Shown: piece by piece, positions 1 through 15,382 of the stretch
Layout: each line of letters opens with the position of its first letter
Numbering within the stretch: position 1 is the first letter of the stretch
Source: Escherichia coli
GTDB taxonomy: Bacteria; Pseudomonadota; Gammaproteobacteria; Enterobacterales; Enterobacteriaceae
NCBI RefSeq assembly: GCF_030384885.1
Contig: NZ_CP128613.1
Strand: one strand, 5' to 3'
DNA: 64,000 bases
Notes under the pieces: generated by a model
Seen by the model: the letters and a program-made list of their open reading frames with translations, nothing else
The model's database searches: none
What the model was told of the DNA's origin: nothing
Translations under genes and position numbers: made by a program

Positions 1-1979
1 ATATCATCCAGAACAGCGGTGCCGCTCTCCAGACGAGCACGGCTAACGGTATTGAAATCAGCGGTACTCACCAGTACGGCACCTTTTCCATTGCCGGAAA
101 TTTAGCGACCAATGCGTTGCTGGAAAATGGCGGTAATTTATTGGTATTAGCAGGTACCGAAGCTCGCGATTCCACGGTTGGCAACGGTGGGGCAATGCAA
201 AACCTGGGTCAGGACTTCGCCACAAAGGTTAATTCCGGTGGGCAATATACCCTTGGTCGGTCAAAAGATGAGTTTCAGGCTCTGGCCCGGGCAGAAGATC
301 TACAGGTCGCTGGCGGGACGGCAATCGTCTACGCAGGTACGCTGGCGGATGCATCGGTCAGTGGCGCGACAGGAAGCCTGTCGTTAATGACGCCACGGGA
401 TAATGTTACGCCAGTTAAACTTGAAGGGGTGGTCCGGATTACCGATAGCGCGACATTAACTATCGGAAATGGCGTCGATACGACGCTTGCCGACCTGACG
501 GCTGCCAGCCGGGGCAGTGTCTGGCTTAACAGCAATAATTCCTGTGCAGGCACCAGCAACTGCGAATATAGAGTAAACAGTTTGCTCCTCAACGACGGTG
601 ATGTTTATTTATCAGCACAAACAGCAGCGCCTGCCACAACTAACGGTATCTACAATACGCTGACCACCAGTGAACTTTCCGGCAGCGGTAATTTCTACCT
701 GCATACCAACGTTGCAGGCTCCCGGGGCGATCAACTGGTCGTCAACAACAACGCCACTGGCAATTTTAAAATCTTTGTTCAGGATACCGGCGTCAGCCCT
801 CAGTCTGACGACGCGATGACGCTGGTGAAAACAGGGGGAGGGGATGCTTCGTTTACGCTGGGTAATACCGGCGGTTTCGTTGATCTTGGGACCTATGAGT
901 ATGTCCTGAAAAGCGACGGCAACAGCAACTGGAACCTGACCAATGATGTCAAACCCAACCCGGATCCCAACCCAAATCCGAAACCGGATCCAAAACCAGA
1001 CCCAAAACCGGATCCGAAACCAGACCCGACTCCCGATCCAACGCCGACACCCGTCCCGGAGAAACGCATCACGCCTTCTACGGCAGCCGTACTCAATATG
1101 GCAGCAACATTACCGTTGGTCTTTGATGCTGAGCTAAACAGTATTCGCGAGCGGTTGAACATAATGAAAGCGAGTCCACACAACAATAATGTCTGGGGGA
1201 CGACGTATAACACCCGTAATAATGTCACCACCGATGCGGGTGCCGGGTTTGAGCAGACGCTGACCGGAATGACGGTGGGGATCGATAGCCGTAATGATAT
1301 TCCTGAGGGGATTGCGACGCTGGGCGCTTTTATGGGTTATTCCCATTCACATATCGGTTTTGATCGTGGAGGACATGGCAGTGTGGGCAGTTATTCTCTG
1401 GGGGGCTATGTCAGCTGGGAACATGAAAGTGGTTTCTATCTGGACGGTATCGTGAAGCTGAACCGCTTTGAAAGTAACGTAGCCGGTAAAATGAGCAGCG
1501 GTGGAGCCGCCAACGGCAGTTATCGCAGCAACGGGCTGGGTGGTCATCTTGAAACCGGGATGCGATTTACCGATGGTAACTGGAACCTGACGCCGTATGC
1601 ATCGTTAACGGGGTTCACCGCTGATAACCCCGAATATCATTTATCCAATGGTATGGAATCGAAATCAGTCGATACCCGCAGTATATATCGTGAACTGGGC
1701 GCAACGCTGAGTTACAACATGCGTCTGGGGAACGGCATGGAAGTTGAGCCGTGGCTGAAGGCGGCTGTGCGCAAAGAATTTGTCGATGATAACCGGGTGA
1801 AAGTGAATAATGACGGTAATTTTGTCAATGATTTGTCGGGCAGACGTGGAATATACCAGGCAGGTATTAAAGCCTCATTCAGCAGTTCGTTAAGCGGGCA
1901 TCTCGGGGTAGGGTATAGCAATGGTGCTGGTTTGGAATCCCCGTGGAACGCGGTGGCTGGTGTGAACTGGTCGTTCTGA
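1..1979 (+). CDS. AIDA-I/Ag43-type autotransporter adhesin, C-terminal part (5' end lies outside the window)
   Basis: Frame is open from position 3 with no upstream stop; Gly/Thr/Asn-rich passenger repeats, a Pro-rich linker (PNPNPKPDPKPDPKPDPTPDP), and a C-terminal beta-barrel domain ending in NWSF (aromatic terminal residue typical of autotransporters). Confidence 0.8.
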   Translation, partial: IIQNSGAALQTSTANGIEISGTHQYGTFSIAGNLATNALLENGGNLLVLAGTEARDSTVGNGGAMQNLGQDFATKVNSGGQYTLGRSKDEFQALARAEDLQVAGGTAIVYAGTLADASVSGATGSLSLMTPRDNVTPVKLEGVVRITDSATLTIGNGVDTTLADLTAASRGSVWLNSNNSCAGTSNCEYRVNSLLLNDGDVYLSAQTAAPATTNGIYNTLTTSELSGSGNFYLHTNVAGSRGDQLVVNNNATGNFKIFVQDTGVSPQSDDAMTLVKTGGGDASFTLGNTGGFVDLGTYEYVLKSDGNSNWNLTNDVKPNPDPNPNPKPDPKPDPKPDPKPDPTPDPTPTPVPEKRITPSTAAVLNMAATLPLVFDAELNSIRERLNIMKASPHNNNVWGTTYNTRNNVTTDAGAGFEQTLTGMTVGIDSRNDIPEGIATLGAFMGYSHSHIGFDRGGHGSVGSYSLGGYVSWEHESGFYLDGIVKLNRFESNVAGKMSSGGAANGSYRSNGLGGHLETGMRFTDGNWNLTPYASLTGFTADNPEYHLSNGMESKSVDTRSIYRELGATLSYNMRLGNGMEVEPWLKAAVRKEFVDDNRVKVNNDGNFVNDLSGRRGIYQAGIKASFSSSLSGHLGVGYSNGAGLESPWNAVAGVNWSF

Positions 1980-2016: not shown

Positions 2017-2139
2017 TCACCAGGAGCCGCGGCTCCTTTGCGTATCCTTTTATGTCTCCTCACCGTCTGGTCGGTGTCTTGCTGAGACTTCTAACTTCCT
2101 GTTTTTGTTGGTGTTGTCCTTACACCGTCCAATCATGAT

Positions 2140-2183
2140 TGGTGGGCTGGCGGGAGTTGAACCCGCGTCCGAAATTCCTACAT
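2140..2183. repeat. Direct repeat of the ssrA 3' end (att site of the ssrA-integrated island)
   Basis: tggtgggctggcgggagttgaacccgcgtccgaaattcctacat matches the terminal 44 nt of ssrA at 16498-16541 with one mismatch. Confidence 0.85.
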
Positions 2184-2310
2184 ACTAATAATATATCTTT
2201 AAAATCAAAATATTCTATTATTTATCAATGTATTATGTTTATGTGGTGTTAAGGGGTTTATATGGGTTTTAGTTCTCTGCCGCCAAAATGCCGCCAAAAA
2301 AATTGAATGG

Positions 2311-2336
2311 TAAAACGCCAGTTCGTTGAACTGGCG
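2311..2336 (-). terminator. Rho-independent terminator of the dcd-like/thyX-like operon
   Basis: Perfect 9-bp stem cgccagttc/gaactggcg with 3-nt loop, followed on the minus strand by a T run; lies just 3' of the thyX-like stop. Confidence 0.6.
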
Positions 2337-2346
2337 AGATCTTGTC

Positions 2347-3114
2347 TTATTGTTTTATTATCTTAACGTGCGCCGTTCCTCCATTGACTTTTTCGAAATC
2401 TTGGAACAAGGCAGGGGCATCTTGAGTTACAATATCGTAAAGTTTTTCTGAAACTGTTCTCATTTCATAGTCACCCTGTATTGCTCCTCTCATTTCGAAG
2501 AAGTGTCGAATTGCGCGAGCATTTGCTGTGACGATTATTTTTGTCTCGGTTGCATTAGGCAATATAGAGCGAGAAGCGCTTCTTAAGGCCCGCATTTTTT
2601 CTTTTTTGTTCTCATACGATTGGTTTTCACGGATTTTTTTCAAGGATTGCTTATAAAAATCCAGACTACTTTCAATATGTTGGCACCATGACTTAAACAA
2701 TTCTGGGTCATTTTTTACTTCTATAGGGGCTACGAATTCAGCATCGGATTCATCATGATACTGTTGGGATAACTGGCTATATGAAAAACCAGCTCTATGC
2801 CGAACTAGCTGGTGTGTAAATGCACGAGATACCCCAGTAATTAAAAAGGTCCAGTTCAAATGTTCTAAGACACTTTCATGCCCTTGAATAATTAAATTGT
2901 TGATATATTGACTTGTAGTCCGTGGAGACTGCTTATCCTCTCCAAAAGACATATAACATAGCCTGCCAGCGGCCTCTACCAGAAGCTCAGCTTCGGTCGC
3001 CTGCCCTTTGCGAACCCATTGCAATGATGATGTGTTTAAAAAATCATCAAAAACATTACTTTCAAATGAAGGGTGTGATATGCATTTTACTGATAAATCA
3101 GAGATTTTTATCAT
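2347..3114 (-). CDS. ThyX-like flavin-dependent thymidylate synthase homolog (divergent)
   Basis: 255 aa. Contains EHLNWTF...HQLVRHRAGFSYSQLSQQY, matching the ThyX signature (RHR followed by a conserved Ser) as recalled from Thermotoga ThyX, plus an N-terminal AAGRLCYMSF block. It has a one-residue insertion after RHR and Gln where the SxRY Arg is expected. Start codon lies 2 nt after the upstream gene's stop; SD gggag. Confidence 0.7.
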   Translation of the reverse strand: MIKISDLSVKCISHPSFESNVFDDFLNTSSLQWVRKGQATEAELLVEAAGRLCYMSFGEDKQSPRTTSQYINNLIIQGHESVLEHLNWTFLITGVSRAFTHQLVRHRAGFSYSQLSQQYHDESDAEFVAPIEVKNDPELFKSWCQHIESSLDFYKQSLKKIRENQSYENKKEKMRALRSASRSILPNATETKIIVTANARAIRHFFEMRGAIQGDYEMRTVSEKLYDIVTQDAPALFQDFEKVNGGTAHVKIIKQ

Positions 3115-3116
3115 TT

Positions 3117-3902
3117 TTACTCCCGTATAGCTTTTGGGGTGCTTACTTTAGCATCAACCTTTGGTTCGTTTGATTTAGCATTTTTTAGTAATTCAACGGT
3201 GCTTTTTAGGCTATTTATTTCATTTTGTTGAACTTTTATTGTTAATTCAAGATCTTTTGTACTACTGACATTACTGGATACTATTTGAAATAAGAAAGGA
3301 ATTGCTAGGGTTATCAACGTTAGCATTAAGGCTGCTATCGCAATTATAAAGCCAGTTTTTTTCGCAATGATTTTATTGATTTCTTTCGGAAGTCGTTTAT
3401 CAAGTCCTGCAAAATCCTTTCCCATTCTAGAAAGTTGATCATCATCCAATTTATTTACGATTTTTCCTTGGTAACCTTTAGTCGGTATTATTGTTTTAAA
3501 TAATAACATTCGGGCTACTGCTGAATTTTGTGTCAATGAGAATGGTTCTTTTGACATATTTACAAGATATATTGAAATTATGCCATTATATCCAGGGTCA
3601 ATATGCCCTGGATTCGTCATGATAATTCCATTTTTTGATAGTGTGTTTCTTGGAAATATTACACCAGCTAAATTTTTTGCAAGTTGGAATTTTTCATTTA
3701 ACTCTAATATTACAGTTTCCCCTGGCATCAGGATATGGTTGTTACGTGTTTTTTTATTGTCTTGACAGTCTGGTATATGTATTGTTTTTACAGAGAGATC
3801 AATGCTTGCAGATTGAACTTTAAATGTTCCATTTAATACCGTTAATGGATCAAAAATGTTGCCTCGCTGAATTTCATCATTGATTTCTATTTCAGACAGC
3901 AT
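3117..3902 (-). CDS. dCTP deaminase/dUTPase-fold protein with C-terminal transmembrane helix and coiled-coil tail
   Basis: 261 aa. N-terminal ~140 aa carry Dcd-family motifs (SIDLSV; LMPGETVILE; GHIDPGYNGIISIYLVN; LTQNSAVARMLLF), comparable to the E. coli Dcd IDPGW-G region. The C-terminal ~110 aa contain a 22-residue hydrophobic segment (GFIIAIAALMLTLITLAIPFLF) followed by a heptad-like polar stretch. Confidence 0.7.
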   Translation of the reverse strand: MLSEIEINDEIQRGNIFDPLTVLNGTFKVQSASIDLSVKTIHIPDCQDNKKTRNNHILMPGETVILELNEKFQLAKNLAGVIFPRNTLSKNGIIMTNPGHIDPGYNGIISIYLVNMSKEPFSLTQNSAVARMLLFKTIIPTKGYQGKIVNKLDDDQLSRMGKDFAGLDKRLPKEINKIIAKKTGFIIAIAALMLTLITLAIPFLFQIVSSNVSSTKDLELTIKVQQNEINSLKSTVELLKNAKSNEPKVDAKVSTPKAIRE

Positions 3903-3928
3903 ATCAAAATCCTATATTTGTAAAGTTA

Positions 3929-4942
3929 TTATAAATTAGCCAGAGGGTTTTTTATTACTGCATCTTCAAGATGCTCTGGGGAAAAATGTGCATAAATCAT
4001 AGTCATTTTTATATCAGAGTGGCCTAAAATATCTCGTAAAACCAAAATATTACCACCATTCATCATAAAATGGCTGGCGAATGTATGGCGCAGAACGTGA
4101 GTGCATTGGCCCTCTGGTAACTCAATGTCAGCTCGCTTTACTGCTCGTTCAAAGGCTTTTCTGCAAGGAGTGAATAACTTCCCTCTGTTCTTAGGGAGTT
4201 CGTCATACAGATCCTGAGATATCGGCACGGTACGGTTTTTCTTGCCCTTAGTCTTGGTATAGGTGATCCGGTATTTCGATAACTGATGGCCCTGCAGATT
4301 TTCGGCTTCACTCCAGCGCGCGCCGGTGGCCAGGCATATTTTTGTAATTAAAAGTAGACTGGGGCTTTGAGAATCAGCACAGGCATCCAGCAGACGTTTA
4401 ATTTCTTCCGGGGTCAGGAACGACAGTTCACCCTCAGCAATTTTAAATGTTGGCAGCCCGGCAAGCGGATTGGGGGCTGACCAGTGGCCCAACTTTTTCA
4501 GTGTGCCAAAAACAGATGATAGGTTGCGCTGTTCAAGGTTTACAGTGCGGGGCTTAACGGGCGACATAAGCGTGCCCTCTTCATTTCGCACTTCACCTTT
4601 TAGCCGCGCTTCTCGGTATTTAGTAAAATCACCGGCTGTCAGCTCTGAGGCGATGGGATCGCCTAGACCATTACAGATAATTCTAAGTTTCGCCATGAGG
4701 CGCTTGGGGTCTGCGAGTGTTTGACCATACAGGGAATACCACTGCTCAATTAATTCTGATAGGTGTCGCCGATCTTCCTTTTCCCCCAGCCATGGCTTTT
4801 TGTTCACTTCTTCCATTGTGAAGCTTTCAAAAGCAATGGCTTCGCCTTTCGTAGCAAATTGCTTACGCACGCGCTTGCCATTGCGTCCATGGGGATAGCA
4901 CTCGCACAACCATTTACCGTTTGGCTGTTTTCTGACAGTCAT
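3929..4942 (-). CDS. int: Phage integrase, tyrosine recombinase (P2/186-type)
   Basis: 337 aa. Catalytic residues in conserved context: ATGARWSE (Arg), HVLRHTF (His-x-x-Arg), MIYAHF (Tyr). Directly downstream of the cI-like gene as in the coliphage 186 lysogeny operon. Confidence 0.85.
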   Translation of the reverse strand: MTVRKQPNGKWLCECYPHGRNGKRVRKQFATKGEAIAFESFTMEEVNKKPWLGEKEDRRHLSELIEQWYSLYGQTLADPKRLMAKLRIICNGLGDPIASELTAGDFTKYREARLKGEVRNEEGTLMSPVKPRTVNLEQRNLSSVFGTLKKLGHWSAPNPLAGLPTFKIAEGELSFLTPEEIKRLLDACADSQSPSLLLITKICLATGARWSEAENLQGHQLSKYRITYTKTKGKKNRTVPISQDLYDELPKNRGKLFTPCRKAFERAVKRADIELPEGQCTHVLRHTFASHFMMNGGNILVLRDILGHSDIKMTMIYAHFSPEHLEDAVIKNPLANL

Positions 4943-4944
4943 GT

Positions 4945-5577
4945 TTAGATACTCTTTATTACTTTGACTGCACGCCCAATAACTTCCACATCATCAGTAG
5001 AGCACTCGAAAGACGCTTCATCTTGATTTACTACAATCTTATTGCCGGGAATCCGCATGATTTTTGCAACAATAATCATTCCATCAATATTGATAAGCCA
5101 GAATCCATTGCTGACCTGTTTAATTGATTTATCGATGAGATAACAATTAGTAGGGGTTTCTAAGAACATCAATTCTTCATAATCTGCAGGTAATATGCTG
5201 TGGTCTAGGAAAATCTCTTCATCAATACTGAGTTGTCCATTCTCCAGGGTTCCTTTAGGAATAGCTGGAGTTATGAGTTTGGATAACGGTTTAATTGCTT
5301 GTTTGTTCTCATTATGAGAACTTTTCTCAGGCTCAGCTCCTCCTTTCATGCTTCCCTGTCCTGTAGCTAACCAAAGCAACGAAACACCGGTTTCTAGTGC
5401 GCACTGAATTATCCAGTCAGCAGGAAAGCTGTCACGTAACACTCTGTTTGCCATAGTGCTTTTTGAGACATTCAGGTGCTCGCTTAATGCCTGCTTAGTT
5501 GTGAATCCATAAGCCTCAAGCAGCCTTTCAATAGCTGCCTTACCTCCCGTATCGGAACCCATTCTGATGTTTAACAT
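4945..5577 (-). CDS. cI: Phage CI-type repressor (186 cI-like)
   Basis: N-terminal HTH region (LEAYGF...CALETGVSLLWLATGQG) resembles the coliphage 186 CI N-terminal domain; divergent from the apl-like gene. Confidence 0.65.
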   Translation of the reverse strand: MLNIRMGSDTGGKAAIERLLEAYGFTTKQALSEHLNVSKSTMANRVLRDSFPADWIIQCALETGVSLLWLATGQGSMKGGAEPEKSSHNENKQAIKPLSKLITPAIPKGTLENGQLSIDEEIFLDHSILPADYEELMFLETPTNCYLIDKSIKQVSNGFWLINIDGMIIVAKIMRIPGNKIVVNQDEASFECSTDDVEVIGRAVKVIKSI

Positions 5578-5698
5578 TGGTGATCTCCATTTGACAATCT
5601 TGAATCAAGATCGTAATGTCTTCATGTCTCTTGATGTGAGAGTTTAAGAGACGGGCTAAAACGAACTAACACGCACACAAAGTAAGAGATACTGCACT

Positions 5699-5941
5699 AT
5701 GAGTACTGATATTTCAATTCGTGTACCAAAAGAGATGGCTACGCCTGCAGAGTTCGCAGAGTGGGAGGGTATTTCCCGCGGCTCTGTTTACCAAAAAATT
5801 CACCATGGTCAACTTGCTAAGTACATGGTCAAGAAAGAAAAAAACAAAGGCCGCGTAAGCCTGCGTTATCTGATGTACAAAACCGATCAGGTCCGTGAAT
5901 CCCTCGGTCATTCCAACTTCCGCGTCATTGTTGGTAAGTAA
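5699..5941 (+). CDS. Apl/Cox-like small DNA-binding protein (excisionase/early repressor)
   Basis: 80-aa basic protein, first gene of the rightward early operon divergent from cI, by synteny with 186 apl / P2 cox. Confidence 0.5.
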   Translation: MSTDISIRVPKEMATPAEFAEWEGISRGSVYQKIHHGQLAKYMVKKEKNKGRVSLRYLMYKTDQVRESLGHSNFRVIVGK

Positions 5942-5973
5942 GTTCAATTATGGGAACTTTCTAAGGGGGCACC

Positions 5974-6483
5974 ATGTTTGATTACAAGATTTCCAAACAT
6001 CCGCATTTCGATGAAGCCTGTAGGGCTTTTGCACTGCGCCACAACCTGGTGCAACTGGCAGAACGTGCAGGCATGAATGTGCAGATTCTGCGGAACAAGC
6101 TGAACCCAGCTCAACCTCATTTATTAACTGCACCAGAAATCTGGTTGCTTACCGATCTGACTGAAGATTCAACGCTGGTAGATGGTTTTCTGGCTCAGAT
6201 TCACTGCCTGCCATGTGTACCGATTAATGAGGTGGCAAAAGAGAAACTGCCACATTACGTCATGAGTGCAACCGCAGAGATCGGGCGTGTCGCGGCAGGT
6301 GCGGTTTCTGGCGATGTAAAAACCAGTGCAGGCCGTCGTGATGCGATCAGCAGCATTAACTCTGTTACACGACTGATGGCGCTGGCTGCTGTTTCATTGC
6401 AGGCCCGTTTACAGGCTAATCCTGCGATGGCGAGTGCGGTTGATACCGTGACTGGCCTCGGTGCTTCATTCGGTTTGCTGTGA
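5974..6483 (+). CDS. cII: CII-like lysogeny establishment regulator (186-type)
   Basis: 169 aa, positioned after the apl-like gene; size and position match 186 CII as recalled. Confidence 0.5.
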
Positions 6484-6490
6484 GGTGCTT

Positions 6491-6787
6491 ATGCTGATGA
6501 AAGAACCATCATTTGCATCGCTCCTGGTAAAACAAAGTCCGGCAATGCACTACGGTCACGGCTGGATCATGGGTGAGGATGGTAAACGCTGGCATCCGTA
6601 CCGTTCACAAGATGAATTGCTGTCTGAATTGACCACGAGGAAACGGAGAAAGTCCAAATGTATGCGGCAGAAAATAAAGTGGTTTATCACTTTCGTTACA
6701 GAGGGGAGAATTATTCAGTACCTGAAGATGATTTGCTCTGTTGCTATCCGTCGTTGTCGGGCGATGGTAGCTACTTTTTCACGCTAA
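6491..6787 (+). CDS. Hypothetical prophage early protein
   Basis: ORF with SD gaggtg 4 nt upstream of ATG at 6491; overlaps the next ORF out of frame, so one of the two may be spurious. Confidence 0.3.
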   Translation: MLMKEPSFASLLVKQSPAMHYGHGWIMGEDGKRWHPYRSQDELLSELTTRKRRKSKCMRQKIKWFITFVTEGRIIQYLKMICSVAIRRCRAMVATFSR

Positions 6788-6882
6788 AGGATGGAACCTT
6801 TATACGTGGTGAAAAAGTACAAGAAGTGATGCGTATAAAGACATCACCTCTTGAACGTTATCGGCGAAATATTTATCGGTAA
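6658..6882 (+). CDS. Hypothetical prophage early protein
   Basis: 74-aa ORF with SD ggag upstream. Confidence 0.35.
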   Translation: MYAAENKVVYHFRYRGENYSVPEDDLLCCYPSLSGDGSYFFTLKDGTFIRGEKVQEVMRIKTSPLERYRRNIYR

Positions 6883-7121
6883 CGATCTATCAGTGTCTGT
6901 ATCAGATGAGTGAATTCTTGTTGTTTAACCGAACCTAAAGGAAGTTTGTTTAATTCTTCGCGGAGGAGCTCAAAAAATGCTGATTGATTTGCTGAGTCAG
7001 TTCGAAATAAGGAGTGGATCAGACCTGAAACAAGAATTCGTTGAACAGCAACCTCATCGCGAAGACTGGAGATCTCGTTTTCAAGTTGCTCTATACGCTC
7101 TCTTTCAACCGGGTTCAACAT
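6873..7121 (-). CDS. Hypothetical small coiled-coil protein, antisense to the early operon
   Basis: 82-aa ORF with heptad-like ERIEQLENEISSLRDEVAVQR; its orientation is opposite to the surrounding early genes. Confidence 0.3.
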   Translation of the reverse strand: MLNPVERERIEQLENEISSLRDEVAVQRILVSGLIHSLFRTDSANQSAFFELLREELNKLPLGSVKQQEFTHLIQTLIDRYR

Positions 7122-7202
7122 TGATGATTCCTTCTAGCTATCAATATGTTGGTAATGGATCATATCAAAAATTTTTTAGTAGATGTGTTGTGGGATGCAT
7201 AA

Positions 7203-7544
7203 ATGGCTATTGAAGGCACTGCGGCGACTGTTCCATTAAGCCCCGGTGAACGCCTGAATGGACTTAATCACATTGCGGAGTTAAGGGCGAAAGTTTTTGG
7301 CCTGAATATTGAGTCAGAGCTTGAGCGGTTTATTAAAGATATGCGTGATTCACGGGATATTAATAGCGAACAAAATAAACGGGCACTGGCTGCCATATTC
7401 TTTATGGCAAAAATTCCAGCTGAACGTCATAGCATCAGCATTAATGAGCTGACCACTGACGAAAAGCGGGAGTTGATTAAAGCAATGAATCATTTTCGTG
7501 CAGTGGTGAGCTTATTTCCCAGACGGCTAACCATGCCGAATTAA
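7203..7544 (+). CDS. Hypothetical prophage early protein
   Basis: 113-aa ORF in the early operon. Confidence 0.4.
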   Translation: MAIEGTAATVPLSPGERLNGLNHIAELRAKVFGLNIESELERFIKDMRDSRDINSEQNKRALAAIFFMAKIPAERHSISINELTTDEKRELIKAMNHFRAVVSLFPRRLTMPN

Positions 7545-7611
7545 CCAACTAATGAAATTAATGGCGTAAACCCGCCGGGCATCCCTTTATCTAAATTCAG
7601 GAGAATTGATT

Positions 7612-7845
7612 ATGCGTAATATTGAAACCCTCTCGACCAAAACCGGACCGGATGACGCAGGGCTTAATATTTTACTGACAGAGGCTCGTCTGGAAGAACG
7701 CCGGGCAAGGGCTGAAGCAATGGCAGCTCGCCTTGATAGCCTGGCGTGTCATATCACATCCCGCCAGCTAACCCACGTCGAAGCGGCAGAACTGCTTCGT
7801 GTGACTGCTGAAGCAATCCAGAACGAAGCGCAGGAGATCCACTGA
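7612..7845 (+). CDS. Hypothetical prophage early protein
   Basis: ATG at 7612 preceded by SD aggaga; 77 aa. Confidence 0.4.
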   Translation: MRNIETLSTKTGPDDAGLNILLTEARLEERRARAEAMAARLDSLACHITSRQLTHVEAAELLRVTAEAIQNEAQEIH

Positions 7846-8072
7846 TGGCTGATGCAATGGATCTCGTACAGCAGCGCGTTGAAGAAGAACGCCAACGCCA
7901 TATCCGTGCTGCCCGTGCCAAAACGCCGGGCGTGTCCCGCGTGCTTTGCATTGAGTGTGAAGCGCCAATTCCGCCAGCACGCCGCCGTGCCATTCCGGGT
8001 GTGCAGCTTTGCATTACCTGTCAGGAAATCGCAGAGCTGAAAGGCAAACATTACAACGGAGGTGCTGTATGA
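7845..8072 (+). CDS. TraR/DksA-family C4 zinc-finger protein (phage)
   Basis: CIECEAPIPPARRRAIPGVQLCITC: two CxxC pairs with the spacing typical of TraR/DksA zinc fingers, common in P2/186-like early regions. Confidence 0.65.
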   Translation: MADAMDLVQQRVEEERQRHIRAARAKTPGVSRVLCIECEAPIPPARRRAIPGVQLCITCQEIAELKGKHYNGGAV

Positions 8073-8926
8073 GCACCATCCTGAAATGGGCGGGAAATAA
8101 AACTGCCATAATGTCCGAACTGAAAAAACATCTTCCTGCTGGCCCGCGACTGGTTGAACCTTTCGCGGGTTCCTGTGCTGTGATGATGGAGACGGATTAT
8201 CCCAGCTATCTGGTTGCGGATATTAATCCTGATTTAATCAACCTCTATAAAAAGGTTGCCGCTGATTGTGAATCGTTTATATCTCGCGCCAGAGTTTTAT
8301 TTGAGATCGCAAACAGGGAGGTGGCTTATTACAACATAAGGCAGGAGTTTAATTACTCAACTGAAATTACTGATTTCATGAAAGCGGTATATTTCCTGTA
8401 TCTCAATCGTCACGGTTACCGTGGTTTATGTCGCTATAACAAGAGCGGGCATTTCAACATTCCCTACGGTAATTATAAAAATCCGTATTTCCCTGAAAAA
8501 GAAATTCGCGCATTTGCAGAAAAGGCCCAGCGAGCAACGTTTATCTGCGCCAGCTTTGATGAAACGCTGGCGATGTTGAAGGCGGGGGATGTGGTGTATT
8601 GCGATCCGCCGTATGACGGTACGTTTTCCGGCTATCACACTGACGGCTTCACTGAAGATGACCAGTATCACCTGGCATCTGTTCTTGAACATCGGTCATC
8701 AGAAGGACATCCGGTCATTGTTTCTAACAGTGACACATCCCTGATCCGTTCGCTGTATCGCAATTTTACTCACCACTACATCAAGGCAAAACGCAGCATC
8801 GGTGTGGCAGCTGGCGAGGGTAAATCAGCAACAGAAATCATTGCTGTTTCCGGGCCGCGCTGCTGGGTGGGATTTGATTATTCGCGTGGCGTGGATAGTT
8901 CTGCCGTGTACGGAGTACGTGCATGA
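8069..8926 (+). CDS. dam: DNA adenine methyltransferase (Dam-like, phage-encoded)
   Basis: N-terminal [11 protein letters not shown]...EPFAGS (AdoMet-binding motif) and the catalytic DPPY motif (VYCDPPYDG); start overlaps the stop of the upstream ORF. Confidence 0.8.
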
Positions 8927-11337
8927 GTCATGCCGATATGAACAACTGCTGCGGCTTTAACGAAGCTGCCGCATCGTTCTCATGGAACAGCCCGAAAAAG
9001 GCCATTAACCCTTATCTGGACCCGGCGGAAGTTGCGCCGGTTTCTGCGCTTTCAAACCTGATCACTCTGTACGCTACTGATAACGAGCAGGAACAACTGC
9101 GCCGCGAGGCACTGAGTGATCAGGTCTGGGAGCGTTATTTCTTTAATGAATCCCGTGATCCTGTCCAACGCGAAATGGAGCAGGATAAGCTCATTAGCCG
9201 GGCAAAGATGGCGCATGAGCAGCAGCGTTTTAATCCAGACATGGTCATTCTGACTGACGTCAACGCCCAGCCTTCCCATATCAGCAAGCCGCTGATGCAA
9301 CGTATTGAATATTTCAGCAGCCTGGGCAGGCCAAAGGCTTATTCCCGCTATTTGCGTGAGACGATTAAGCCATGTCTGGAACGACTGGAGCATGTACGCG
9401 ACAGCCAGCTATCTGCATCTTTTCGTTTTATGGCAAGCCATGAAGGGCTGGACGGTCTGCTGATCCTGCCTGAAATGAGTCAGGATCAGGTGAAACGCCT
9501 GTCTACCCTTGTCGCTGCGCATATGAGCATGTGTCTTGATGCCGCTTGTGGTGATTTGTACGCCTCCGATGATGTTAAGCCAGAAGAAATCCGCAAGACA
9601 TGGGAAAAGGTGGCTGCAGAAACCCTGCGACTGGATGTCATACCGCCTGCGTTTGAGCAACTCCGCCGGAAAAGAAACCGCCGCAAACCTGTGCCTTATG
9701 AACTCATTCCGGGTTCGCTGGCGCGTATGCTGTGCGCCGACTGGTGGTATCGGAAATTATGGAAGATACGTTGCGAATGGCGGGAAGAGCAGTTGCGTGC
9801 TGTCTGCCTGGTCAGCAAAAAAGCATCTCCCTATGTCAGCTATGAAGCCGTGATGCATAAACGTGAGCAGCGCCGTAAGTCGCTGGAGTTTTTCCGTTCT
9901 CATGAACTGGTGAACGAAGACGGCGACACGCTGAACATGGAGGATGTGGTAAACACCAGCAGCAGCAACCCGGCGCATCGCCGCAACGAGATGATGGCCT
10001 GTGTTAAAGGCCTAGAGCTTATCGCGGAAATGCGTGGTGACTGCGCCGTTTTCTACACCATCACCTGTCCGTCACGTTTCCATTCCACGCTAAATAACGG
10101 CAGGCCAAACCCGACCTGGACCAACGCGACAGTAAGACAAAGCAGCGATTATCTGGTCGGCATGTTTGCTGCATTTCGTAAGGCTATGCACAAAGCCGGG
10201 TTGCGCTGGTATGGCGTGCGGGTGGCTGAGCCGCATCATGACGGCACAGTTCACTGGCACCTGTTGTGTTTCATGCGCAAAAAAGACCGCCGCGCCATTA
10301 CTGCATTGTTGCGTAAGTTTGCCATCCGTGAAGACCGCGAGGAGCTGGGCAATAACACGGGGCCACGCTTTAAGTCTGAGCTGATAAACCCGCGCAAAGG
10401 AACGCCGACAAGCTACATTGCGAAATATATCAGTAAGAATATTGACGGGCGTGGTCTGGCTGGCGAGATCAGTAAGGAAACGGGTAAATCCCTGCGTGAT
10501 AACGCTGAATACGTTAATGCCTGGGCGTCTCTGCATCGTGTTCAGCAATTCCGCTTCTTTGGCATTCCGGGGCGTCAGGCTTACCGTGAACTGCGATTGC
10601 TGGCTGGTCAGGCGGCAAGGCAACAGGGTGACAAAAAAGCAGGTGCGCCGGTACTGGATAACCCGCGCCTTGATGCCATCCTGGCTGCTGCTGATGCTGG
10701 TTGTTTTGCCTCCTACATCATGAAGCAGGGCGGCGTACTGGTTCCCCGCAAATATCACCTCATCAGAACCGCTTATGAAATCAACGAAGAGCCGACCGCC
10801 TATGGCGATCACGGTATTCGTATTTATGGCATCTGGTCACCCATTGCAGAGGGCAAGATCTGCACTCATGCAGTGAAGTGGAAAATGGTTCGTAAGGCCG
10901 TTGACGTTCAGGAGGCGGCAGCCGACCAGGGCGCTTGCGCCCCTTGGACTCGTGGCAATAACTGTCCCCTTGCTGAAAATTTGAACCAACAGGAGAAAGA
11001 TAAATCAGCTGATGGGGACACCAGAACGGACATTACCCGCATGGATGACAAGGAGTTGCACGATTACCTGCACAGTATGAGCAAAAAAGAGCGCCGGGAA
11101 CTGGCTGCAAGGTTACGCCAGGTGAAACCGAAACGGCGTAAAGACTACAAACAGCGAATTACAGACCATCAGCGACAGCAGCTCGTCTATGAACTGAAGT
11201 CCAGGGGATTTGATGGCAGTGAGAAAGAAGTCGATTTGCTCCTTCGCGGTGGCAGTATTCCGTCAGGAGCAGGCCTGCGTATTTTCTATCGGAACCAGCG
11301 TCTGAAGGAAGATGATAAGTGGCGGAACCTGTATTAA
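8923..11337 (+). CDS. Phage replication initiation protein (P2 gpA-like rolling-circle endonuclease)
   Basis: 804 aa. HUH-type motif VHWHLLCF and active-site Tyr block [12 protein letters not shown], as in P2/186 gene A. Confidence 0.8.
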
Positions 11338-11429
11338 TTACGCGGGTTAACAATTCGTGCCCTTAATAATACCAGGCATATCAGGCTGATGAATGTAAAA
11401 AAACGTTTTACATCAGTAAGATTATTATA

Positions 11430-11449
11430 TACTGTAAATATAAACAGTG
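11430..11449 (+). promoter_or_regulatory. LexA (SOS) box upstream of small ORF plus dinI-like gene
   Basis: tactgtaaatataaacagtg: CTGT-N8-ACAG with an AT-rich spacer, ~40 nt upstream of the ATG at 11490. Confidence 0.65.
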
Positions 11450-11489
11450 GTTATCTATACAGTATTGCTTTGGTGTCATAGGAGGAAAG

Positions 11490-11678
11490 ATGCAGGACTA
11501 TTTTTTGGAGTCTTTGAAGCTCCAGCGCATTGATTTTTTTCTTAAGCTTGTAGCGGCTAGTGAGTGTAGTGATGAAGAGAAGGGGCTGGCTCTGCAGTGG
11601 GTTTCTGAACTGACAGATGAACTCATGGCAAAAATCAGAACCCACGAATACAACCGCTCAATGGATGTCATCAGCTGA
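11490..11678 (+). CDS. Hypothetical SOS-regulated small protein (possible Tum-like antirepressor position)
   Basis: 62-aa ORF with SD aggagg, immediately downstream of the LexA box; position analogous to 186 tum, but no recognised sequence similarity. Confidence 0.4.
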   Translation: MQDYFLESLKLQRIDFFLKLVAASECSDEEKGLALQWVSELTDELMAKIRTHEYNRSMDVIS

Positions 11679-11688
11679 GGTGACTTTT

Positions 11689-11922
11689 ATGCGCATTGAA
11701 ATAATGATCGATAAAGAGCAGAAGATTAGCCAGTCTACCCTGGACGCCCTTGAATCCGAGCTTTACCGCAATCTGCGCCCCCTGTATCCCAAAACGGTAA
11801 TCCGTATCCGTAAAGGTAGCTCTAACGGTGTGGAACTGACCGGACTGCAACTGGACGAAGAAAGAAAACAAGTGATGAAAATTATGCAGAAGGTGTGGGA
11901 AGACGACAGCTGGCTGCATTGA
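11689..11922 (+). CDS. DinI-family protein
   Basis: 77 aa, MRIEIMIDK...LDALESEL...KVWEDDSWL parallels E. coli DinI (MRIEVTIAK...IDALAGEL...ETWESADDWF). Confidence 0.7.
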   Translation: MRIEIMIDKEQKISQSTLDALESELYRNLRPLYPKTVIRIRKGSSNGVELTGLQLDEERKQVMKIMQKVWEDDSWLH

Positions 11923-12035
11923 TTTTGTCAATAGACGCTTGTTTTTACTAATCAAAAAGGGTTACATATGAGTGAGAGGCGATGTCAATCAGATATCGCC
12001 TTGTTTTTTGTCAAGAAAAGAATAATAGGCTAAAA

Positions 12036-12713
12036 ATGAAAATTAATAATGTAGCGTTACCAATATCTCTTGCTGTAATCCTAACTGGTTGCGTGCCACA
12101 TGCTTCTAACCGAAATATCACTGCTATTGAAGTGGTGAAGCCTGCTATTGGGCAAAGTGCTACCGCCTACATGGGCGATCCCATTATCACATCTGCTACT
12201 GGATTTAAAACGGACGTACTAGAACTTGGTGCGGCTAATGGTGCATTGTCTTCTATCGCTGCTGGTACATATTGCAGTGAGGGGAATGGAATTTACCGCA
12301 ATTATCATAACCCTCAAGCTGTTGCGTTAAAAAATCTCTATGGGCAAATCGGTAACTATGTTGATTATGTTAGTTACGATGCTGCAAAAAATGAGATATC
12401 ACCGCCAAATGGTACTTCTTATACTGCATCAGAAATTTCTATCAAACGTGTTCCTGATGGGCTGTGTCGAGTTAGTAACTCATTGGTTAAGACTATCGAA
12501 TACAATGGAAATGCAGGCGGTGTAATGAAGTTCACCTATCGTGAATTTGCAAACGATATGGCTCGTGCAGCATTTACAACAGATTTTTCTGTAGATTCTA
12601 AGGGAAGTGACGTTATCGCTTACAAAGGTGCCAAGTTCAAAGTGAACAAGGCTGATAACTCGTCTATTTCTTATACAATTATTTCTGGCTTTGACAAGGC
12701 TGTCACGTTCTAG
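12036..12713 (+). CDS. Prophage-encoded lipoprotein (moron)
   Basis: Signal peptide MKINNVALPISLAVILTGC with lipobox LTGC; the remainder is Ser/Thr/Asn-rich with no recognised domain. Confidence 0.6.
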   Translation: MKINNVALPISLAVILTGCVPHASNRNITAIEVVKPAIGQSATAYMGDPIITSATGFKTDVLELGAANGALSSIAAGTYCSEGNGIYRNYHNPQAVALKNLYGQIGNYVDYVSYDAAKNEISPPNGTSYTASEISIKRVPDGLCRVSNSLVKTIEYNGNAGGVMKFTYREFANDMARAAFTTDFSVDSKGSDVIAYKGAKFKVNKADNSSISYTIISGFDKAVTF

Positions 12714-12805
12714 GTTTCACGCTTACTGAGTATGTTACGATTTTGCACATTCTGCATAAACGCGCATGTCTATGCTGCATGAGATCGCATGATCGTTTGA
12801 GGATC

Positions 12806-12833
12806 TTTTGTGTTAAGGCCCGCCAGTTCTGGC
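12806..12833 (+). terminator. Rho-independent terminator after lipoprotein gene
   Basis: GC-rich stem gcccgcc/ggcgggc followed by tttt. Confidence 0.6.
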
Positions 12834-15375: not shown

Positions 15376-15382
15376 TTTTATT

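What the first reader, a model, noticed from the sequence alone, without database searches (positions are those of the whole stretch)
2347..3114. ThyX homolog with altered signature: one-residue insertion after RHR and Gln in place of the conserved SxRY Arg
The protein aligns by eye to the ThyX core (EH...FTF...Q-VRHR...SY-x-x-LS-x-x-Y). The substrate-binding motif reads RHRAGFSYSQLSQQY, versus RHRIASYNELSGRY as I recall it from Thermotoga. The extra residue and the Arg-to-Gln change at a position expected to contact the dUMP phosphate suggest altered substrate specificity (a different pyrimidine nucleotide or a modification reaction) or a non-catalytic sensor role.
Basis: partly seen in the sequence, partly recalled or inferred. 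Interest (0 to 1): 0.6.

Follow-up and report, generated by a model that had tools for sequence, protein, structure and literature searches.

The report
Altered ThyX–Dcd-like pair in prophage
A degraded prophage in this E. coli carries two coupled genes, a thymidylate-synthase (ThyX) look-alike whose key arginine is always glutamine and a membrane-anchored dCTP-deaminase look-alike without its catalytic glutamate; the pair travels together through many bacteria inside mobile elements and defence islands, so it is probably an undescribed nucleotide-based anti-phage module, not an ordinary thymidylate synthase.

Summary
ORF 2347..3114 (-) is a ThyX-family protein reading RHRAGFSYSQLSQQY, with Gln118 where T. 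maritima has Arg90 and M. tuberculosis has Arg107. The extra residue after RHR is not special: 50 of 54 Firmicutes ThyX sampled have the same 8-residue spacer and keep the Arg.

The Gln is not decay. It is invariant in 147/147 members of a clade spread over at least six phyla. Every other FAD, dUMP and folate residue checked is retained.

ORF 3117..3902 (-) lies 2 nt upstream. It has a Dcd/dUTPase fold, a C-terminal transmembrane helix and a coiled coil, and it lacks the deaminase Glu in 67/67 homologs.

Gln-type ThyX and this partner co-occur in 33/33 evaluable loci. None of 125 Arg-type ThyX loci has the partner.

The pair sits in the att–int cargo slot of P2-like prophages and at the end of an ICE. 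Elsewhere it lies next to Menshen, Iet, GmrSD, SIR2 and type IV restriction genes. It matches no PADLOC model, and I found no paper on it.

Best reading (confidence ~0.5): an undescribed two-gene module acting on deoxypyrimidine nucleotides, probably anti-phage. The chemistry is untested.

The parts
2347..3114 (-). ThyX-like gene (255 aa), Gln-type clade of the Thy1/FDTS family
   Evidence: It keeps H79, E84, H85, R97, R105-H106-R107, S116, Y119, R182, N198, R200 and R209, which correspond to Tm H53, E58, H59, R74, R78-H79-R80, S88, Y91, R147, N163, R165 and R174.
2758..2802 (-). ThyX motif RHRAGFSYSQLSQQY (residues 105-119); the Gln118 codon CAG is at 2761..2763
   Evidence: Read directly from the sequence and aligned to Mtb ThyX. 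RHRxG[FWTI][SA][YF]SQLSQQY is present in all 120 closest homologs. Q is invariant in 147/147 clade members, against R in 56/56 canonical ThyX.
3117..3902 (-). Partner gene (261 aa): Dcd/dUTPase-fold domain, then a TM helix, then a coiled coil
   Evidence: It scores below threshold on TIGR02274 dCTP_deam (56.2 bits against a cut-off of 92.8) and matches phrog_1663 over its full length. The AF2 model has pLDDT 82.8. Its best fold matches are bifunctional Dcd-dUTPases and archaeal Dcd-family dUTPases. Its stop codon is 2 nt from the ThyX-like ATG (TAAAAATG).
3453..3902 (-). Cytoplasmic Dcd/dUTPase-fold domain (residues ~1-150), including the invariant MTNPGHIDPGY motif at 3588..3620
   Evidence: pLDDT exceeds 90 over most of residues 1-150. 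Invariant residues are D35, G61, E70, P84, T96-N97-P98-G99-H100, D102, P103, G107 and N115. At the column of E. coli Dcd Glu138 the family has T/Y/C/A/V, never E or D, in 67/67 sequences (Glu aligned to Tyr in the HMMER alignment to 4xjc).
3279..3353 (-). Predicted transmembrane helix of the partner (residues ~184-208), followed by a coiled-coil tail to residue ~244
   Evidence: The best 19-residue Kyte-Doolittle window scores 2.65 in the query. A comparable segment is present in 65/67 family members. AF2 predicts one continuous helix over residues 167-244.
2316..2336 (-). Terminator-like hairpin (CGCCAGTT / AACTGGCG) followed by a T-rich tail, 11 nt after the ThyX-like stop codon
   Evidence: Read by eye. 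The consensus scan did not flag it, so treat it as weak.
3929..5577 (-). P2/186-type integrase (3929..4942) and CI repressor (4945..5577), co-oriented directly upstream of the cassette with a 26-nt gap
   Evidence: annotated as integrase and CI in the 99.7% identical locus of strain TUM12355. No promoter-like site was found in the int-partner gap.
2139..2183 (.). Prophage attachment repeat; its copy at 16497..16542 is the 3' end of ssrA
   Evidence: A 46-bp alignment at 97.8% identity. The tmRNA gene lies at 16498..16860. The cassette therefore lies inside the prophage, 164 bp from its end.

Best explanation
The two genes form one accessory module that moves horizontally on prophages, ICEs and defence islands. 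It most likely acts on deoxypyrimidine nucleotides to interfere with phage replication.

Proposed working:
- The partner forms a dUTPase-fold trimer tethered to the inner membrane by its C-terminal helix and coiled coil. It binds a dCTP/dUTP-type nucleotide. It cannot deaminate it. It may hydrolyse it to the monophosphate, as archaeal Dcd-family dUTPases do, or it may only sense it.
- The ThyX-like protein is an FAD enzyme that still binds a dUMP-like nucleotide and folate. With Gln in place of the Arg that assists methylene transfer, its chemistry is diverted or gated. It might stall, yield a different C5 product, or burn NADPH and folate instead of making housekeeping dTMP.
- In the P2-like prophage the pair is probably expressed in the lysogen as the tail of the cI-int transcript.

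Shown here: obligate pairing, the residue patterns, the membrane anchor and the genomic contexts. Inferred: the ligands, the catalysis, any physical complex, the expression pattern and the anti-phage role.
For: Pairing. Gln-type ThyX has the partner in 33/33 evaluable loci, usually directly upstream with a 4-bp overlap. None of 125 Arg-type ThyX loci has it. Fisher p is 9e-35, but the loci are not phylogenetically independent. Two partner homologs chosen without reference to ThyX were both followed by a Thy1 gene carrying SQLSQQY.

Purifying selection on a distinct function. Q118 and about 60 other columns are invariant at 51-96% identity across Gamma-, Alpha-, Beta- and Deltaproteobacteria, Acidobacteria, Verrucomicrobia, Bacteroidales and a Mycobacterium.

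Active-site logic. All FAD, dUMP and folate residues are kept except the Arg. R90A cripples the dUMP-triggered carbinolamine step (PMC8316439).

The partner. No deaminase Glu in 67/67 sequences. It keeps Asp102, equivalent to Dcd Asp128 and to the motif-3 catalytic Asp of dUTPases, and it keeps an aromatic residue at 105. Dcd-family dUTPases are among its top fold matches. The TM anchor is present in 65/67.

Context.
- The att-int slot of P2-like prophages in E. coli and Klebsiella.
- The end of an ICE.
- Next to a complete Menshen NsnABC system plus an R-M system.
- In P. aeruginosa, between Iet, a DpdF/GajB-like helicase, PD-Lambda-3_B and a STAND protein.
- Next to a type IV restriction enzyme and a NERD protein on an integrase-bearing element.
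- Between a SIR2 protein and two GmrSD proteins.

Other points. The cassette is AT-rich, at 32-39% GC against 49% for the window. It is present in only 1 of 5426 complete E. coli genomes at near-identical DNA level. ThyX in a thyA organism runs against the strongest negative phyletic coupling among the Pfam domain pairs analysed in that study (PMC6822775). A ThyA-type thymidylate synthase has already been validated inside a defence system (NTTI, PMC13092281), so nucleotide C5-transferases in immunity have a precedent.
Against: There is no experimental evidence of phage protection. Neither protein hits any PADLOC model. Co-localisation is guilt by association, judged on about ten hand-inspected contexts and not on a genome-wide enrichment statistic. 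In Pseudomonas L005 the pair sits among housekeeping genes with no defence neighbour.

The protein passes NCBI's thyX equivalog cut-off and keeps nearly all catalytic residues, so it may simply be an active thymidylate synthase. Gln might substitute adequately for Arg.

The membrane anchor has no place in any nucleotide-pool mechanism I can name. A ThyX tetramer and a dUTPase-fold trimer are symmetry-mismatched if they form a complex.

The alternative cargo genes in the same att-int slot of sister prophages have no known defence annotation.
Confidence: 0.5

Rival explanations
1. It is a working thymidylate-supply module for the mobile element. The partner turns dCTP or dUTP into dUMP, and the ThyX-like enzyme makes dTMP without consuming DHFR capacity. 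This would boost replication of the prophage or ICE, or the fitness of the host. Gln is a tolerated variant of Arg.
For: The protein scores 154.8 bits on the TIGR02170 equivalog, above the cut-off. Every catalytic residue except one is conserved. dCTP/dUTP to dUMP to dTMP is a coherent textbook pathway. Bifunctional Dcd-dUTPases and Dcd-family dUTPases are the partner's closest folds. Many phages carry ThyX.
Against: The partner lacks the deaminase Glu in 67/67 sequences, and the Dcd Ser111/Arg115 equivalents are not conserved. It scores far below the dCTP-deaminase and dut cut-offs. A membrane anchor is pointless for a soluble pathway. R90A is strongly impaired in T. maritima ThyX.

In IMG/VR the Gln clade occurs in only 7 contigs. 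The six that could be judged sit near the end of the contig, like the window's att-side cargo slot. By contrast, 71 phage ThyX keep Arg and have no partner. No close homolog of the partner exists in 50,697 sequenced phage records.

The cassette is oriented with cI-int, the lysogenic direction, and not with the replication genes. The enterobacterial and Pseudomonas hosts already have ThyA (established knowledge).
Confidence: 0.2
2. It is an abortive-infection sensor-effector pair built from pseudoenzymes. The ThyX-like and Dcd-like domains only bind nucleotides, for example a phage-made or phage-depleted deoxypyrimidine. The output is membrane damage or signalling through the partner's TM helix and coiled coil.
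For: The membrane anchor and coiled coil are conserved in 65/67 partners. Both proteins have lost residues needed for their ancestral reaction. Single-pass TM effectors are common in defence systems (general knowledge). The defence-island context fits.
Against: The ThyX-like protein keeps the whole FAD site, the folate His, Ser116, Tyr119 and Arg209 as invariant residues. That is more conservation than ligand sensing alone should need. One TM helix per chain, without a recognisable pore or lytic domain, is a weak effector. The acidobacterial versions add NUDIX and MazG-like hydrolase genes, which points towards nucleotide chemistry.
Confidence: 0.15
3. It is a synthase of a non-canonical C5-modified pyrimidine nucleotide, for example 5-hydroxymethyl-dUMP in place of dTMP. 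The product would be used either to poison replicating DNA or to modify the element's own DNA.
For: The changed residue flanks Tyr119. The equivalent Tyr is described as a lid that shields C5 of dUMP and N5 of the flavin from solvent (PMC6514825). The Arg-Tyr pair is proposed to assist departure of the carbinolamine hydroxyl (PMC8316439). The ThyX family has already diverged to other substrates: PolB is a UMP/dUMP methylase (PDB 4p5b). A divergent Thy1 protein was hypothesised to be the hmdUMP synthase of phage SP-15 (PMC5977210). Linkage with NUDIX and MazG-like genes resembles phage base-replacement pathways.
Against: This is entirely inferential. The module contains no kinase, glycosylase or DNA-modification gene. 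Arg209, the uracil O4/N3 contact, is unchanged, so the base specificity is probably still uracil. The MazG assignment is not significant (E 5.2).
Confidence: 0.1
4. It is an ordinary thyX, and the R-to-Q change and the gene neighbour are incidental.
For: RefSeq/PGAP annotates it as thyX, FAD-dependent thymidylate synthase.
Against: Q is invariant in 147/147 clade members and R in 56/56 canonical ThyX. The coupling between Gln and the partner is perfect, at 33/33 against 0/125. These patterns are not what incidental features look like.
Confidence: 0.05

Closest known systems
Flavin-dependent thymidylate synthase ThyX (M. tuberculosis Rv2754c type; PDB 2af6/3gwc/3hzg)
   Same: Same fold (TM 0.85-0.89) at 37% identity in the MAFFT alignment. 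It shares the N-terminal extension seen in the actinobacterial type. The RHR motif, Ser, Tyr, the two other dUMP arginines, the flavin-site residues and the folate His are all the same.
   Different: Gln replaces Arg107. One extra residue follows RHR. The gene is always coupled to a membrane Dcd-like gene, is carried on mobile elements, and is found in organisms that already have ThyA.
Atypical ThyX of Corynebacterium glutamicum (PDB 3ge9/3fnn)
   Same: A close relative (E 4e-39). The PDB titles say it is 'not required for thymidylate biosynthesis' and that the strain 'depends on ThyA'. This is a precedent for a ThyX homolog that coexists with ThyA and has a substitution in the same SxRY motif.
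   Different: There the change is Tyr to Phe (SQRF), with the Arg kept. I know of no Dcd-like membrane partner for it.
PolB, UMP/dUMP C5-methylase of polyoxin biosynthesis (PDB 4p5a/4p5b)
   Same: A ThyX-family enzyme repurposed for another nucleotide substrate.
   Different: It is a distant relative (E ~1e-6) in a biosynthetic gene-cluster context. I did not check its motif state.
dCTP deaminase, bifunctional dCTP deaminase-dUTPase, and archaeal Dcd-family dUTPase (PDB 1xs1, 4xjc, 2qlp, 8y1w, 9ln0)
   Same: The partner's N-terminal domain has this fold (Foldseek E 1e-11, TMt 0.6-0.8). It keeps the IDPG[YF]xG motif with the Asp and the aromatic residue.
   Different: The catalytic Glu138 is absent, the Ser111/Arg115 equivalents are not conserved, and there is no C-terminal lid. 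Instead it has a KDF motif, a TM helix and a coiled coil.
Nucleotide-depletion defences (dCTP deaminase and dGTPase systems of Tal et al. 2022; AvcD)
   Same: The idea is the same: an immune module that alters the deoxynucleotide pool in infected cells. The mobile, defence-island lifestyle is the same.
   Different: The known defensive dCTP/dCMP deaminases belong to the zinc cytidine-deaminase fold (from my own knowledge), not the dUTPase fold. No PADLOC model, including those, matches either protein.
DefensePredictor system DS-3/NTTI (thymidylate synthase + adenylate kinase + base-hypermodification protein + TIR)
   Same: An experimentally validated E. coli defence system that contains a thymidylate-synthase-type C5-transferase (PMC13092281).
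   Different: That thymidylate synthase is ThyA-type (PF00303), which is unrelated in fold to ThyX (PF02511). The partner genes are different.
P2/P4 prophage defence hotspots (Rousset et al.)
   Same: Variable, AT-rich cargo in a P2-like prophage. The same prophage carries a PDC-S06 candidate in the cos-adjacent hotspot.
   Different: The described E. coli hotspots lie next to cos. This cassette is in the att-int slot. The nearest described analogue is the cI-int hotspot of Vibrio P2-related phages.

Membership tests
ThyX / FDTS (Pfam Thy1 PF02511; TIGR02170) | Thy1 domain and fold | tested here: met
   Pfam E 3.2e-48. TIGR02170 154.8 bits, above the 87.9 cut-off. TM 0.85-0.89 to Mtb ThyX.
ThyX / FDTS (Pfam Thy1 PF02511; TIGR02170) | RHR of the ThyX motif (Tm R78-H79-R80) | tested here: met
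   R105-H106-R107 are invariant in both the clade and canonical ThyX.
ThyX / FDTS (Pfam Thy1 PF02511; TIGR02170) | Ser and Tyr of SxRY (Tm S88, Y91) | tested here: met
   S116 and Y119 are invariant.
ThyX / FDTS (Pfam Thy1 PF02511; TIGR02170) | Arg of SxRY (Tm R90 / Mtb R107) | tested here: not met
   Q118 in 147/147 clade members, against R in 56/56 canonical ThyX. A regex check found SxRY in a further 71 phage ThyX.
ThyX / FDTS (Pfam Thy1 PF02511; TIGR02170) | The other dUMP, FAD and folate contacts (Tm H53, E58, R74, R147, N163, R165, R174) | tested here: met
   H79, E84, R97, R182, N198, R200 and R209 are all invariant.
ThyX / FDTS (Pfam Thy1 PF02511; TIGR02170) | Spacer of 7-8 residues between RHR and Ser | tested here: met
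   The spacer here is 8 residues. Canonical Firmicutes ThyX show both 8 and 7.
ThyX / FDTS (Pfam Thy1 PF02511; TIGR02170) | Thymidylate synthase activity (dUMP to dTMP; complements a thyA deletion) | not testable with these tools
   This needs complementation and enzyme assays.
ThyX / FDTS (Pfam Thy1 PF02511; TIGR02170) | Serves in place of ThyA (phyletic anticorrelation with PF00303 and DHFR) | not tested
   The anticorrelation is documented (PMC6822775). That E. coli, Klebsiella and Pseudomonas have thyA is established knowledge. The host genomes were not scanned here.
dCTP deaminase Dcd (TIGR02274) | dUTPase-like beta fold | tested here: met
   AF2 pLDDT exceeds 90 over most of residues 1-150. 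Foldseek matches 4xjc, 2qlp and 1xs1.
dCTP deaminase Dcd (TIGR02274) | Score above the curated family cut-off | tested here: not met
   56.2 bits against a cut-off of 92.8.
dCTP deaminase Dcd (TIGR02274) | Catalytic Glu (E. coli Glu138) | tested here: not met
   T25/Y22/C18/A1/V1 at that column in 67 partner sequences. Glu aligns to Tyr in the HMMER alignment to 4xjc. The reference sequence matched 1xs1 over its full length (E 4e-129).
dCTP deaminase Dcd (TIGR02274) | Ser111 / Arg115 of the deaminase site | tested here: not met
   These columns read N/S/A and K/R/S/F/L/V, so they are not conserved.
Trimeric dUTPase (TIGR00576 / NF001862) | Motif-3 Asp and the sugar-stacking aromatic residue | tested here: met
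   D102 is invariant, and Y/F/W occupies position 105 in 67/67 sequences. The equivalence to Dut Asp90/Tyr93 rests on my own knowledge of the motif.
Trimeric dUTPase (TIGR00576 / NF001862) | Score above the curated cut-offs, and a C-terminal Gly-rich motif 5 | tested here: not met
   45.5 and 40.7 bits against cut-offs of about 103. Beyond residue 150 the protein is mostly helical: two short structured elements, then one long helix over residues 167-244, with no Gly-rich motif.
Known or candidate anti-phage systems (PADLOC-DB 2.0.0) | Match to a defence-protein HMM | tested here: not met
   Zero families for either protein at E <= 0.01.
Known or candidate anti-phage systems (PADLOC-DB 2.0.0) | Recurrent co-localisation with known defence genes or mobile elements | tested here: met
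   Neighbours include Menshen NsnABC, IetA, a DpdF/GajB-like helicase, PD-Lambda-3_B and a type IV restriction enzyme, and SIR2 plus GmrSD. The pair also sits in a prophage att-int slot and at an ICE end. This is qualitative, not a genome-wide statistic.
Known or candidate anti-phage systems (PADLOC-DB 2.0.0) | Measured protection against phage | not testable with these tools
   This needs plaque assays.

The most novel reading that the evidence does not exclude
A previously unrecognised, widespread two-gene immune system in which a flavin-dependent thymidylate synthase has been repurposed. A strictly conserved Arg-to-Gln switch in the SxRY motif diverts its flavin-methylene chemistry. The outcome could be an aberrant C5-modified deoxyuridylate, or a dUMP-gated drain of NADPH and folate. 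The enzyme would work under the control of, or be fed by, a membrane-tethered pseudo-dCTP-deaminase trimer that reads the deoxypyrimidine pool or the state of the envelope during infection.
Probability: 0.3. Interest if true: 0.85.

Novelty: new variant of a known kind. Interest (0 to 1): 0.65.

Why it matters
Public annotation calls this protein thyX, FAD-dependent thymidylate synthase, and calls its neighbour a dCTP-deaminase-domain protein. The evidence here suggests that both names mislead for a whole family. The partner alone has at least 472 clusters at 50% identity (E <= 1e-30).

If the module is defensive, it would add a new enzymatic principle to bacterial immunity, namely flavin/folate C5 chemistry on deoxyuridylate. 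It would also show how a core metabolic enzyme is converted by a single conserved active-site substitution.

For ThyX enzymology, the clade is a natural experiment on the role of Arg90/Arg107. ThyX is a drug target in M. tuberculosis and H. pylori.

The system is directly testable because it occurs natively in E. coli on a 1.6-kb cassette.

Tried and rejected
PADLOC scan of both proteins and the integrase: no hit.

Literature searches:
- ThyX with anti-phage or defence terms, 'ThyX-like', PF02511, and dUTPase-like/TM/thymidylate terms found no paper on this pair.
- The one promising lead, 'thymidylate synthase' in DefensePredictor, turned out to be a ThyA-type enzyme in a different five-gene system. 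'FAD-dependent thymidylate synthase' does appear in its Table S3, but in a sheet whose columns I could not identify, so I draw nothing from it.
- A search with R90/R174/R147 returned only reference-number noise. Several mechanistic ThyX papers are not held.

A possible third gene: the 325-aa genes flanking the pair in Terriglobia and in a marine element are unrelated to each other. The acidobacterial one has only a non-significant MazG hit.

Long N-terminal extensions on some partner homologs look like mis-called starts and not fusions.

Sequenced phages (INPHARED) hold no close partner homolog.

The alternative cargo genes in the att-int slot of sister E. coli prophages have no PADLOC hit, so the slot is not demonstrably a defence hotspot.

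Rfam found no regulatory RNA near the cassette in five loci.

The promoter and terminator scan gave nothing above shuffle expectation near the cassette.

I considered and rejected the idea that the one-residue insertion is meaningful. I also rejected the idea that the Gln reflects pseudogenisation.
Full report
THE OBSERVATION

The minus-strand ORF 2347..3114 encodes a 255-aa protein. It is a clear member of the flavin-dependent thymidylate synthase family.
- Pfam Thy1 scores E 3.2e-48.
- NCBIfam TIGR02170 scores 154.8 bits, above its curated cut-off of 87.9.
- The best solved relative is M. tuberculosis ThyX at E 7e-42.
- An AlphaFold model (pLDDT 89.5) superposes on Mtb ThyX with TM 0.85-0.89.

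HMMER aligns LVRHRAGFSYSQLSQQYH with Mtb LIRHR-HFSYSQLSQRYV. The one-residue insertion and the Arg-to-Gln replacement are therefore real. Gln118 (codon 2761..2763) corresponds to Mtb Arg107 and T. maritima Arg90.

WHICH PART OF THE OBSERVATION MATTERS

I compared 147 relatives that carry the Gln with 56 canonical ThyX (54 from Firmicutes, plus Mtb and T. maritima), column by column.

Residues identical in both sets, with T. maritima numbering in brackets:
- H79 (H53), E84 (E58), H85 (H59) and R97 (R74)
- R105-H106-R107 (the RHR motif)
- S116 (S88) and Y119 (Y91)
- R182 (R147), N198 (N163), R200 (R165) and R209 (R174)

The one universal active-site difference is position 118: Gln in 147/147 against Arg in 56/56.

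The insertion carries no information. Fifty of the 54 Firmicutes enzymes read RHR[IV]G[CSA]S[YF]SQxSQRY, with the same 8-residue spacer, and keep the Arg. The other four have 7 residues.

The Gln is not decay. RHRxG[FWTI][SA][YF]SQLSQQY is intact in all 120 closest database homologs, down to 51% identity. These come from Serratia, Klebsiella, Pectobacterium, Pseudomonas, Shewanella, Pseudoalteromonas and others. In species-representative genomes the same motif is found in Acidobacteria, Verrucomicrobia, Alpha-, Beta- and Deltaproteobacteria, Bacteroidales and one Mycobacterium.

The literature says the residue matters.
- Arg107 is one of the residues that stabilise dUMP in Mtb ThyX (PMC6514825).
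- In T. maritima ThyX the Arg90 guanidinium hydrogen-bonds the Tyr91 hydroxyl.
- S88A, R90A or Y91A mutants greatly slow the dUMP-triggered consumption of the flavin carbinolamine, which is the methylene-transfer step (PMC8316439).

Two nucleotides upstream (TAAAAATG) ends ORF 3117..3902 (-), 261 aa.
- Its first ~150 residues have the Dcd/dUTPase fold. It scores below threshold on TIGR02274 (56.2 against 92.8 bits) and on the dut models.
- AF2 gives pLDDT above 90 over most of this domain.
- The best Foldseek matches are bifunctional dCTP deaminase-dUTPases and archaeal Dcd-family dUTPases.
- A short linker follows, carrying a conserved KDF motif. Then comes one long helix over residues 167-244, which contains a strongly hydrophobic segment (residues ~184-208) and a coiled-coil tail.

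In 67 family members:
- The column of the E. coli Dcd catalytic Glu138 holds Thr, Tyr, Cys, Ala or Val, and never an acid. The Ser111 and Arg115 columns are not conserved. The E. coli reference sequence matched 1xs1 over its full length (E 4e-129), and the same Glu-to-Tyr mismatch appears in HMMER's own alignment to 4xjc.
- MTNPGH-IDPG[YF]xG is invariant. This includes Asp102, which is equivalent to Dcd Asp128 and to the motif-3 Asp of dUTPases, and the aromatic residue that follows it.
- The hydrophobic anchor is present in 65/67.

So the partner is a membrane-tethered, probably trimeric, deoxynucleotide-binding protein. It cannot be a canonical dCTP deaminase. It could still be a pyrophosphatase or a sensor.

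The family is large. A profile search of 1.84 billion cluster representatives returned 472 at E <= 1e-30, nearly all of them 250-320 aa and matched over their full length.

THE TWO GENES ARE ONE UNIT

Every Gln-type ThyX whose surroundings could be read has the partner.
- Klebsiella, Pseudomonas, Shewanella, Terriglobia and a marine gammaproteobacterium all have it directly upstream, mostly with a 4-bp overlap.
- Of 26 species-representative loci, 23 have it. The other three end within 330 bp upstream of the ThyX gene.
- Six of seven viral-contig loci have it, and the seventh begins at the contig edge.

The test also works in the other direction. Four partner proteins used as queries (P0131, P0155, P0171, P0181) were each followed by a Thy1 gene carrying SQLSQQY.

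None of 125 Arg-type ThyX loci (54 Firmicutes, 71 phage) has the partner within the flanks held. That gives 33/33 against 0/125. Fisher p is 9e-35, with the caveat that related loci are not independent events.

In six Acidobacteria the unit grows to four genes by adding a NUDIX hydrolase and a 325-aa protein. The latter has only a faint, non-significant MazG resemblance. Gene order is shuffled, but the linkage is kept.

WHERE THE PAIR LIVES

In the window, the cassette is the last cargo of a P2/186-like prophage remnant. A 46-bp repeat bounds the prophage: 2139..2183 and 16497..16542, the latter being the 3' end of ssrA. The cassette lies 164 bp inside the att repeat, 26 nt downstream of int, and is co-oriented with cI-int. 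Its GC content is 32-39%, against 47% for int and 49% for the window. No promoter-like site lies in the int-partner gap, so read-through from the lysogenic cI-int transcript is likely. That is an inference.

Only one of 5426 complete E. coli genomes carries the cassette at near-identical DNA level. Sister prophages at the same site carry other, unrelated single genes in this slot.

Elsewhere the pair is found:
- in the same slot of Klebsiella P2-like prophages;
- at the end of an ICE;
- beside a complete Menshen system (NsnA/B/C, E 1e-83 to 1e-115) and an R-M system;
- in P. aeruginosa, between IetA with its S8 protease, a 1708-aa DpdF/GajB-like helicase, PD-Lambda-3_B and a STAND protein;
- on a small integrase-bearing marine element, next to a type IV restriction enzyme and a NERD protein;
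- between a 1260-aa SIR2 protein and two GmrSD proteins.

One Pseudomonas context is a bare two-gene island among housekeeping genes.

In 2.9 million viral contigs the Gln clade appears only seven times. The six that could be judged lie near the end of the contig, like the window's att-side slot. Canonical Arg-type ThyX are common there, many on contigs over 100 kb. No sequenced phage has a close partner homolog.

Finally, ThyA (PF00303) and ThyX (PF02511) show the strongest negative phyletic coupling of all the Pfam domain pairs analysed in that study (PMC6822775). A ThyX-family gene riding into thyA-bearing enterobacteria is therefore against the rule for a housekeeping enzyme.

HOW IT MOST LIKELY WORKS

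Shown here:
- an obligately paired, horizontally mobile module under strong purifying selection;
- a ThyX-like protein that keeps its flavin, dUMP and folate sites except for one charged residue needed for efficient methylene transfer;
- a Dcd-fold partner that keeps its deoxyribose-recognition motif but has lost the deaminase machinery and gained a membrane anchor;
- repeated residence in prophage cargo slots and defence islands.

Inferred (confidence about 0.5): the module acts on deoxypyrimidine nucleotides and serves against phages.
- The partner would bind dCTP or dUTP. It would either hydrolyse it to the monophosphate, as Dcd-family dUTPases do, or report its level.
- The ThyX-like enzyme would carry out a diverted or gated version of the flavin-methylene reaction on dUMP.

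I cannot decide between three outputs: pool depletion, an aberrant C5 product, or a drain of NADPH and folate.

The membrane anchor, and the strictness of Gln as opposed to any other residue, remain unexplained. Both proteins have lost phosphate-contacting arginines, which may mean the true ligand is not simply dUMP or dCTP.

RIVALS
- A genuine dTMP-supply pathway for the mobile element (0.2). It is chemically coherent. Against it stand the dead deaminase site, the membrane anchor, the R90A data, the lysogenic orientation, and the near-absence of the clade from phage genomes.
- A pseudoenzyme sensor coupled to a membrane effector (0.15). This explains the anchor, but not the full conservation of the flavin chemistry residues.
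- A synthase of a modified nucleotide such as 5-hmdUMP (0.1). Only hypothetical precedents exist: phage SP-15 (PMC5977210) and PolB.
- An ordinary thyX with incidental features (0.05). This is contradicted by the invariant Gln and the perfect pairing.

COMPARISON WITH WHAT IS KNOWN
- By fold and by database cut-off, the protein is a ThyX-family member. It fails one defining motif residue, so I would not file it as a thymidylate synthase without an assay.
- The partner is not a member of Dcd or Dut by score or by catalytic residues, although it shares their fold.
- Neither protein matches any of the 5027 PADLOC models.
- Full-text searches of 8 million papers and preprints found nothing on a ThyX-containing defence system.
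- The nearest conceptual relatives are the nucleotide-depletion defences and the validated DefensePredictor system NTTI. NTTI uses an unrelated ThyA-type thymidylate synthase.
- C. glutamicum's 'atypical ThyX not required for thymidylate biosynthesis' (PDB titles) carries SQRF in the same motif. This shows that variants of this motif can coexist with ThyA.

VERDICT

Novelty: a new variant of a known kind. Interest: 0.65.

Noticed in passing
window 13039..15375 (+): A 778-aa AAA-type ATPase matches the PADLOC candidate defence family PDC-S06 over its full length (E 1.5e-266). Its GC content is 30.6%. It sits in the cos-adjacent old/tin hotspot of the same P2-like prophage, so this remnant prophage carries two AT-rich cargo loci.
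   Followed up: partly
window 2139..16542: The P2/186-like prophage is a ~14.4-kb remnant bounded by a 46-bp ssrA-derived repeat. It keeps cI, int, cII, replication and Dam-like genes. It has only a portal fragment (15425..15823) and no tail or head genes. It looks domesticated, retaining mainly the cargo.
   Followed up: partly
L104 471..1139, L105 502..1725, L106 502..1533 (sister E. coli prophages at ssrA): The att-int slot that holds the cassette here is filled in other strains by unrelated single 'hypothetical' genes of 222, 407 and 343 aa. All are co-oriented with int. None has a PADLOC hit. This may be an unrecognised variable cargo slot of P2-like phages.
   Followed up: partly
L012 1012..4534; also L023, L025, L026, L029, L031: In Acidobacteria the pair is linked to a NUDIX hydrolase gene and a 325-aa gene with a faint MazG-like stretch (E 5.2). 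Gene order is rearranged between genomes, but the four genes stay together.
   Followed up: partly
L035 9133..10753 (Mycobacterium sp. 1100029.7): A Gln-type ThyX and its partner occur in a Mycobacterium, a genus whose members normally carry a canonical, essential thyX. The two types may therefore coexist in one genome. The rest of that genome was not examined.
   Followed up: no
window 117..1979 (+): This is the C-terminal part of a YpjA/EhaD-like autotransporter adhesin, with a Pro-Asp-Lys/Thr repeat linker (PNPDPNPNPKPDPKPDPKPDPKPDPTPDPTPTP), directly abutting the prophage att site.
   Followed up: no
L015 12075..15523 (-): The marine integrative element that carries the pair also has a three-gene cluster of an AAA_23 ATPase plus MC2 and CTD6 domain proteins (Pfam names from conflict-system surveys), next to a Phage_GPA replication gene.
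   Followed up: no
window 2922..3173 (+): An 83-aa ORF lies antisense to the ThyX-like/partner junction. It has no support and is probably spurious.
   Followed up: no
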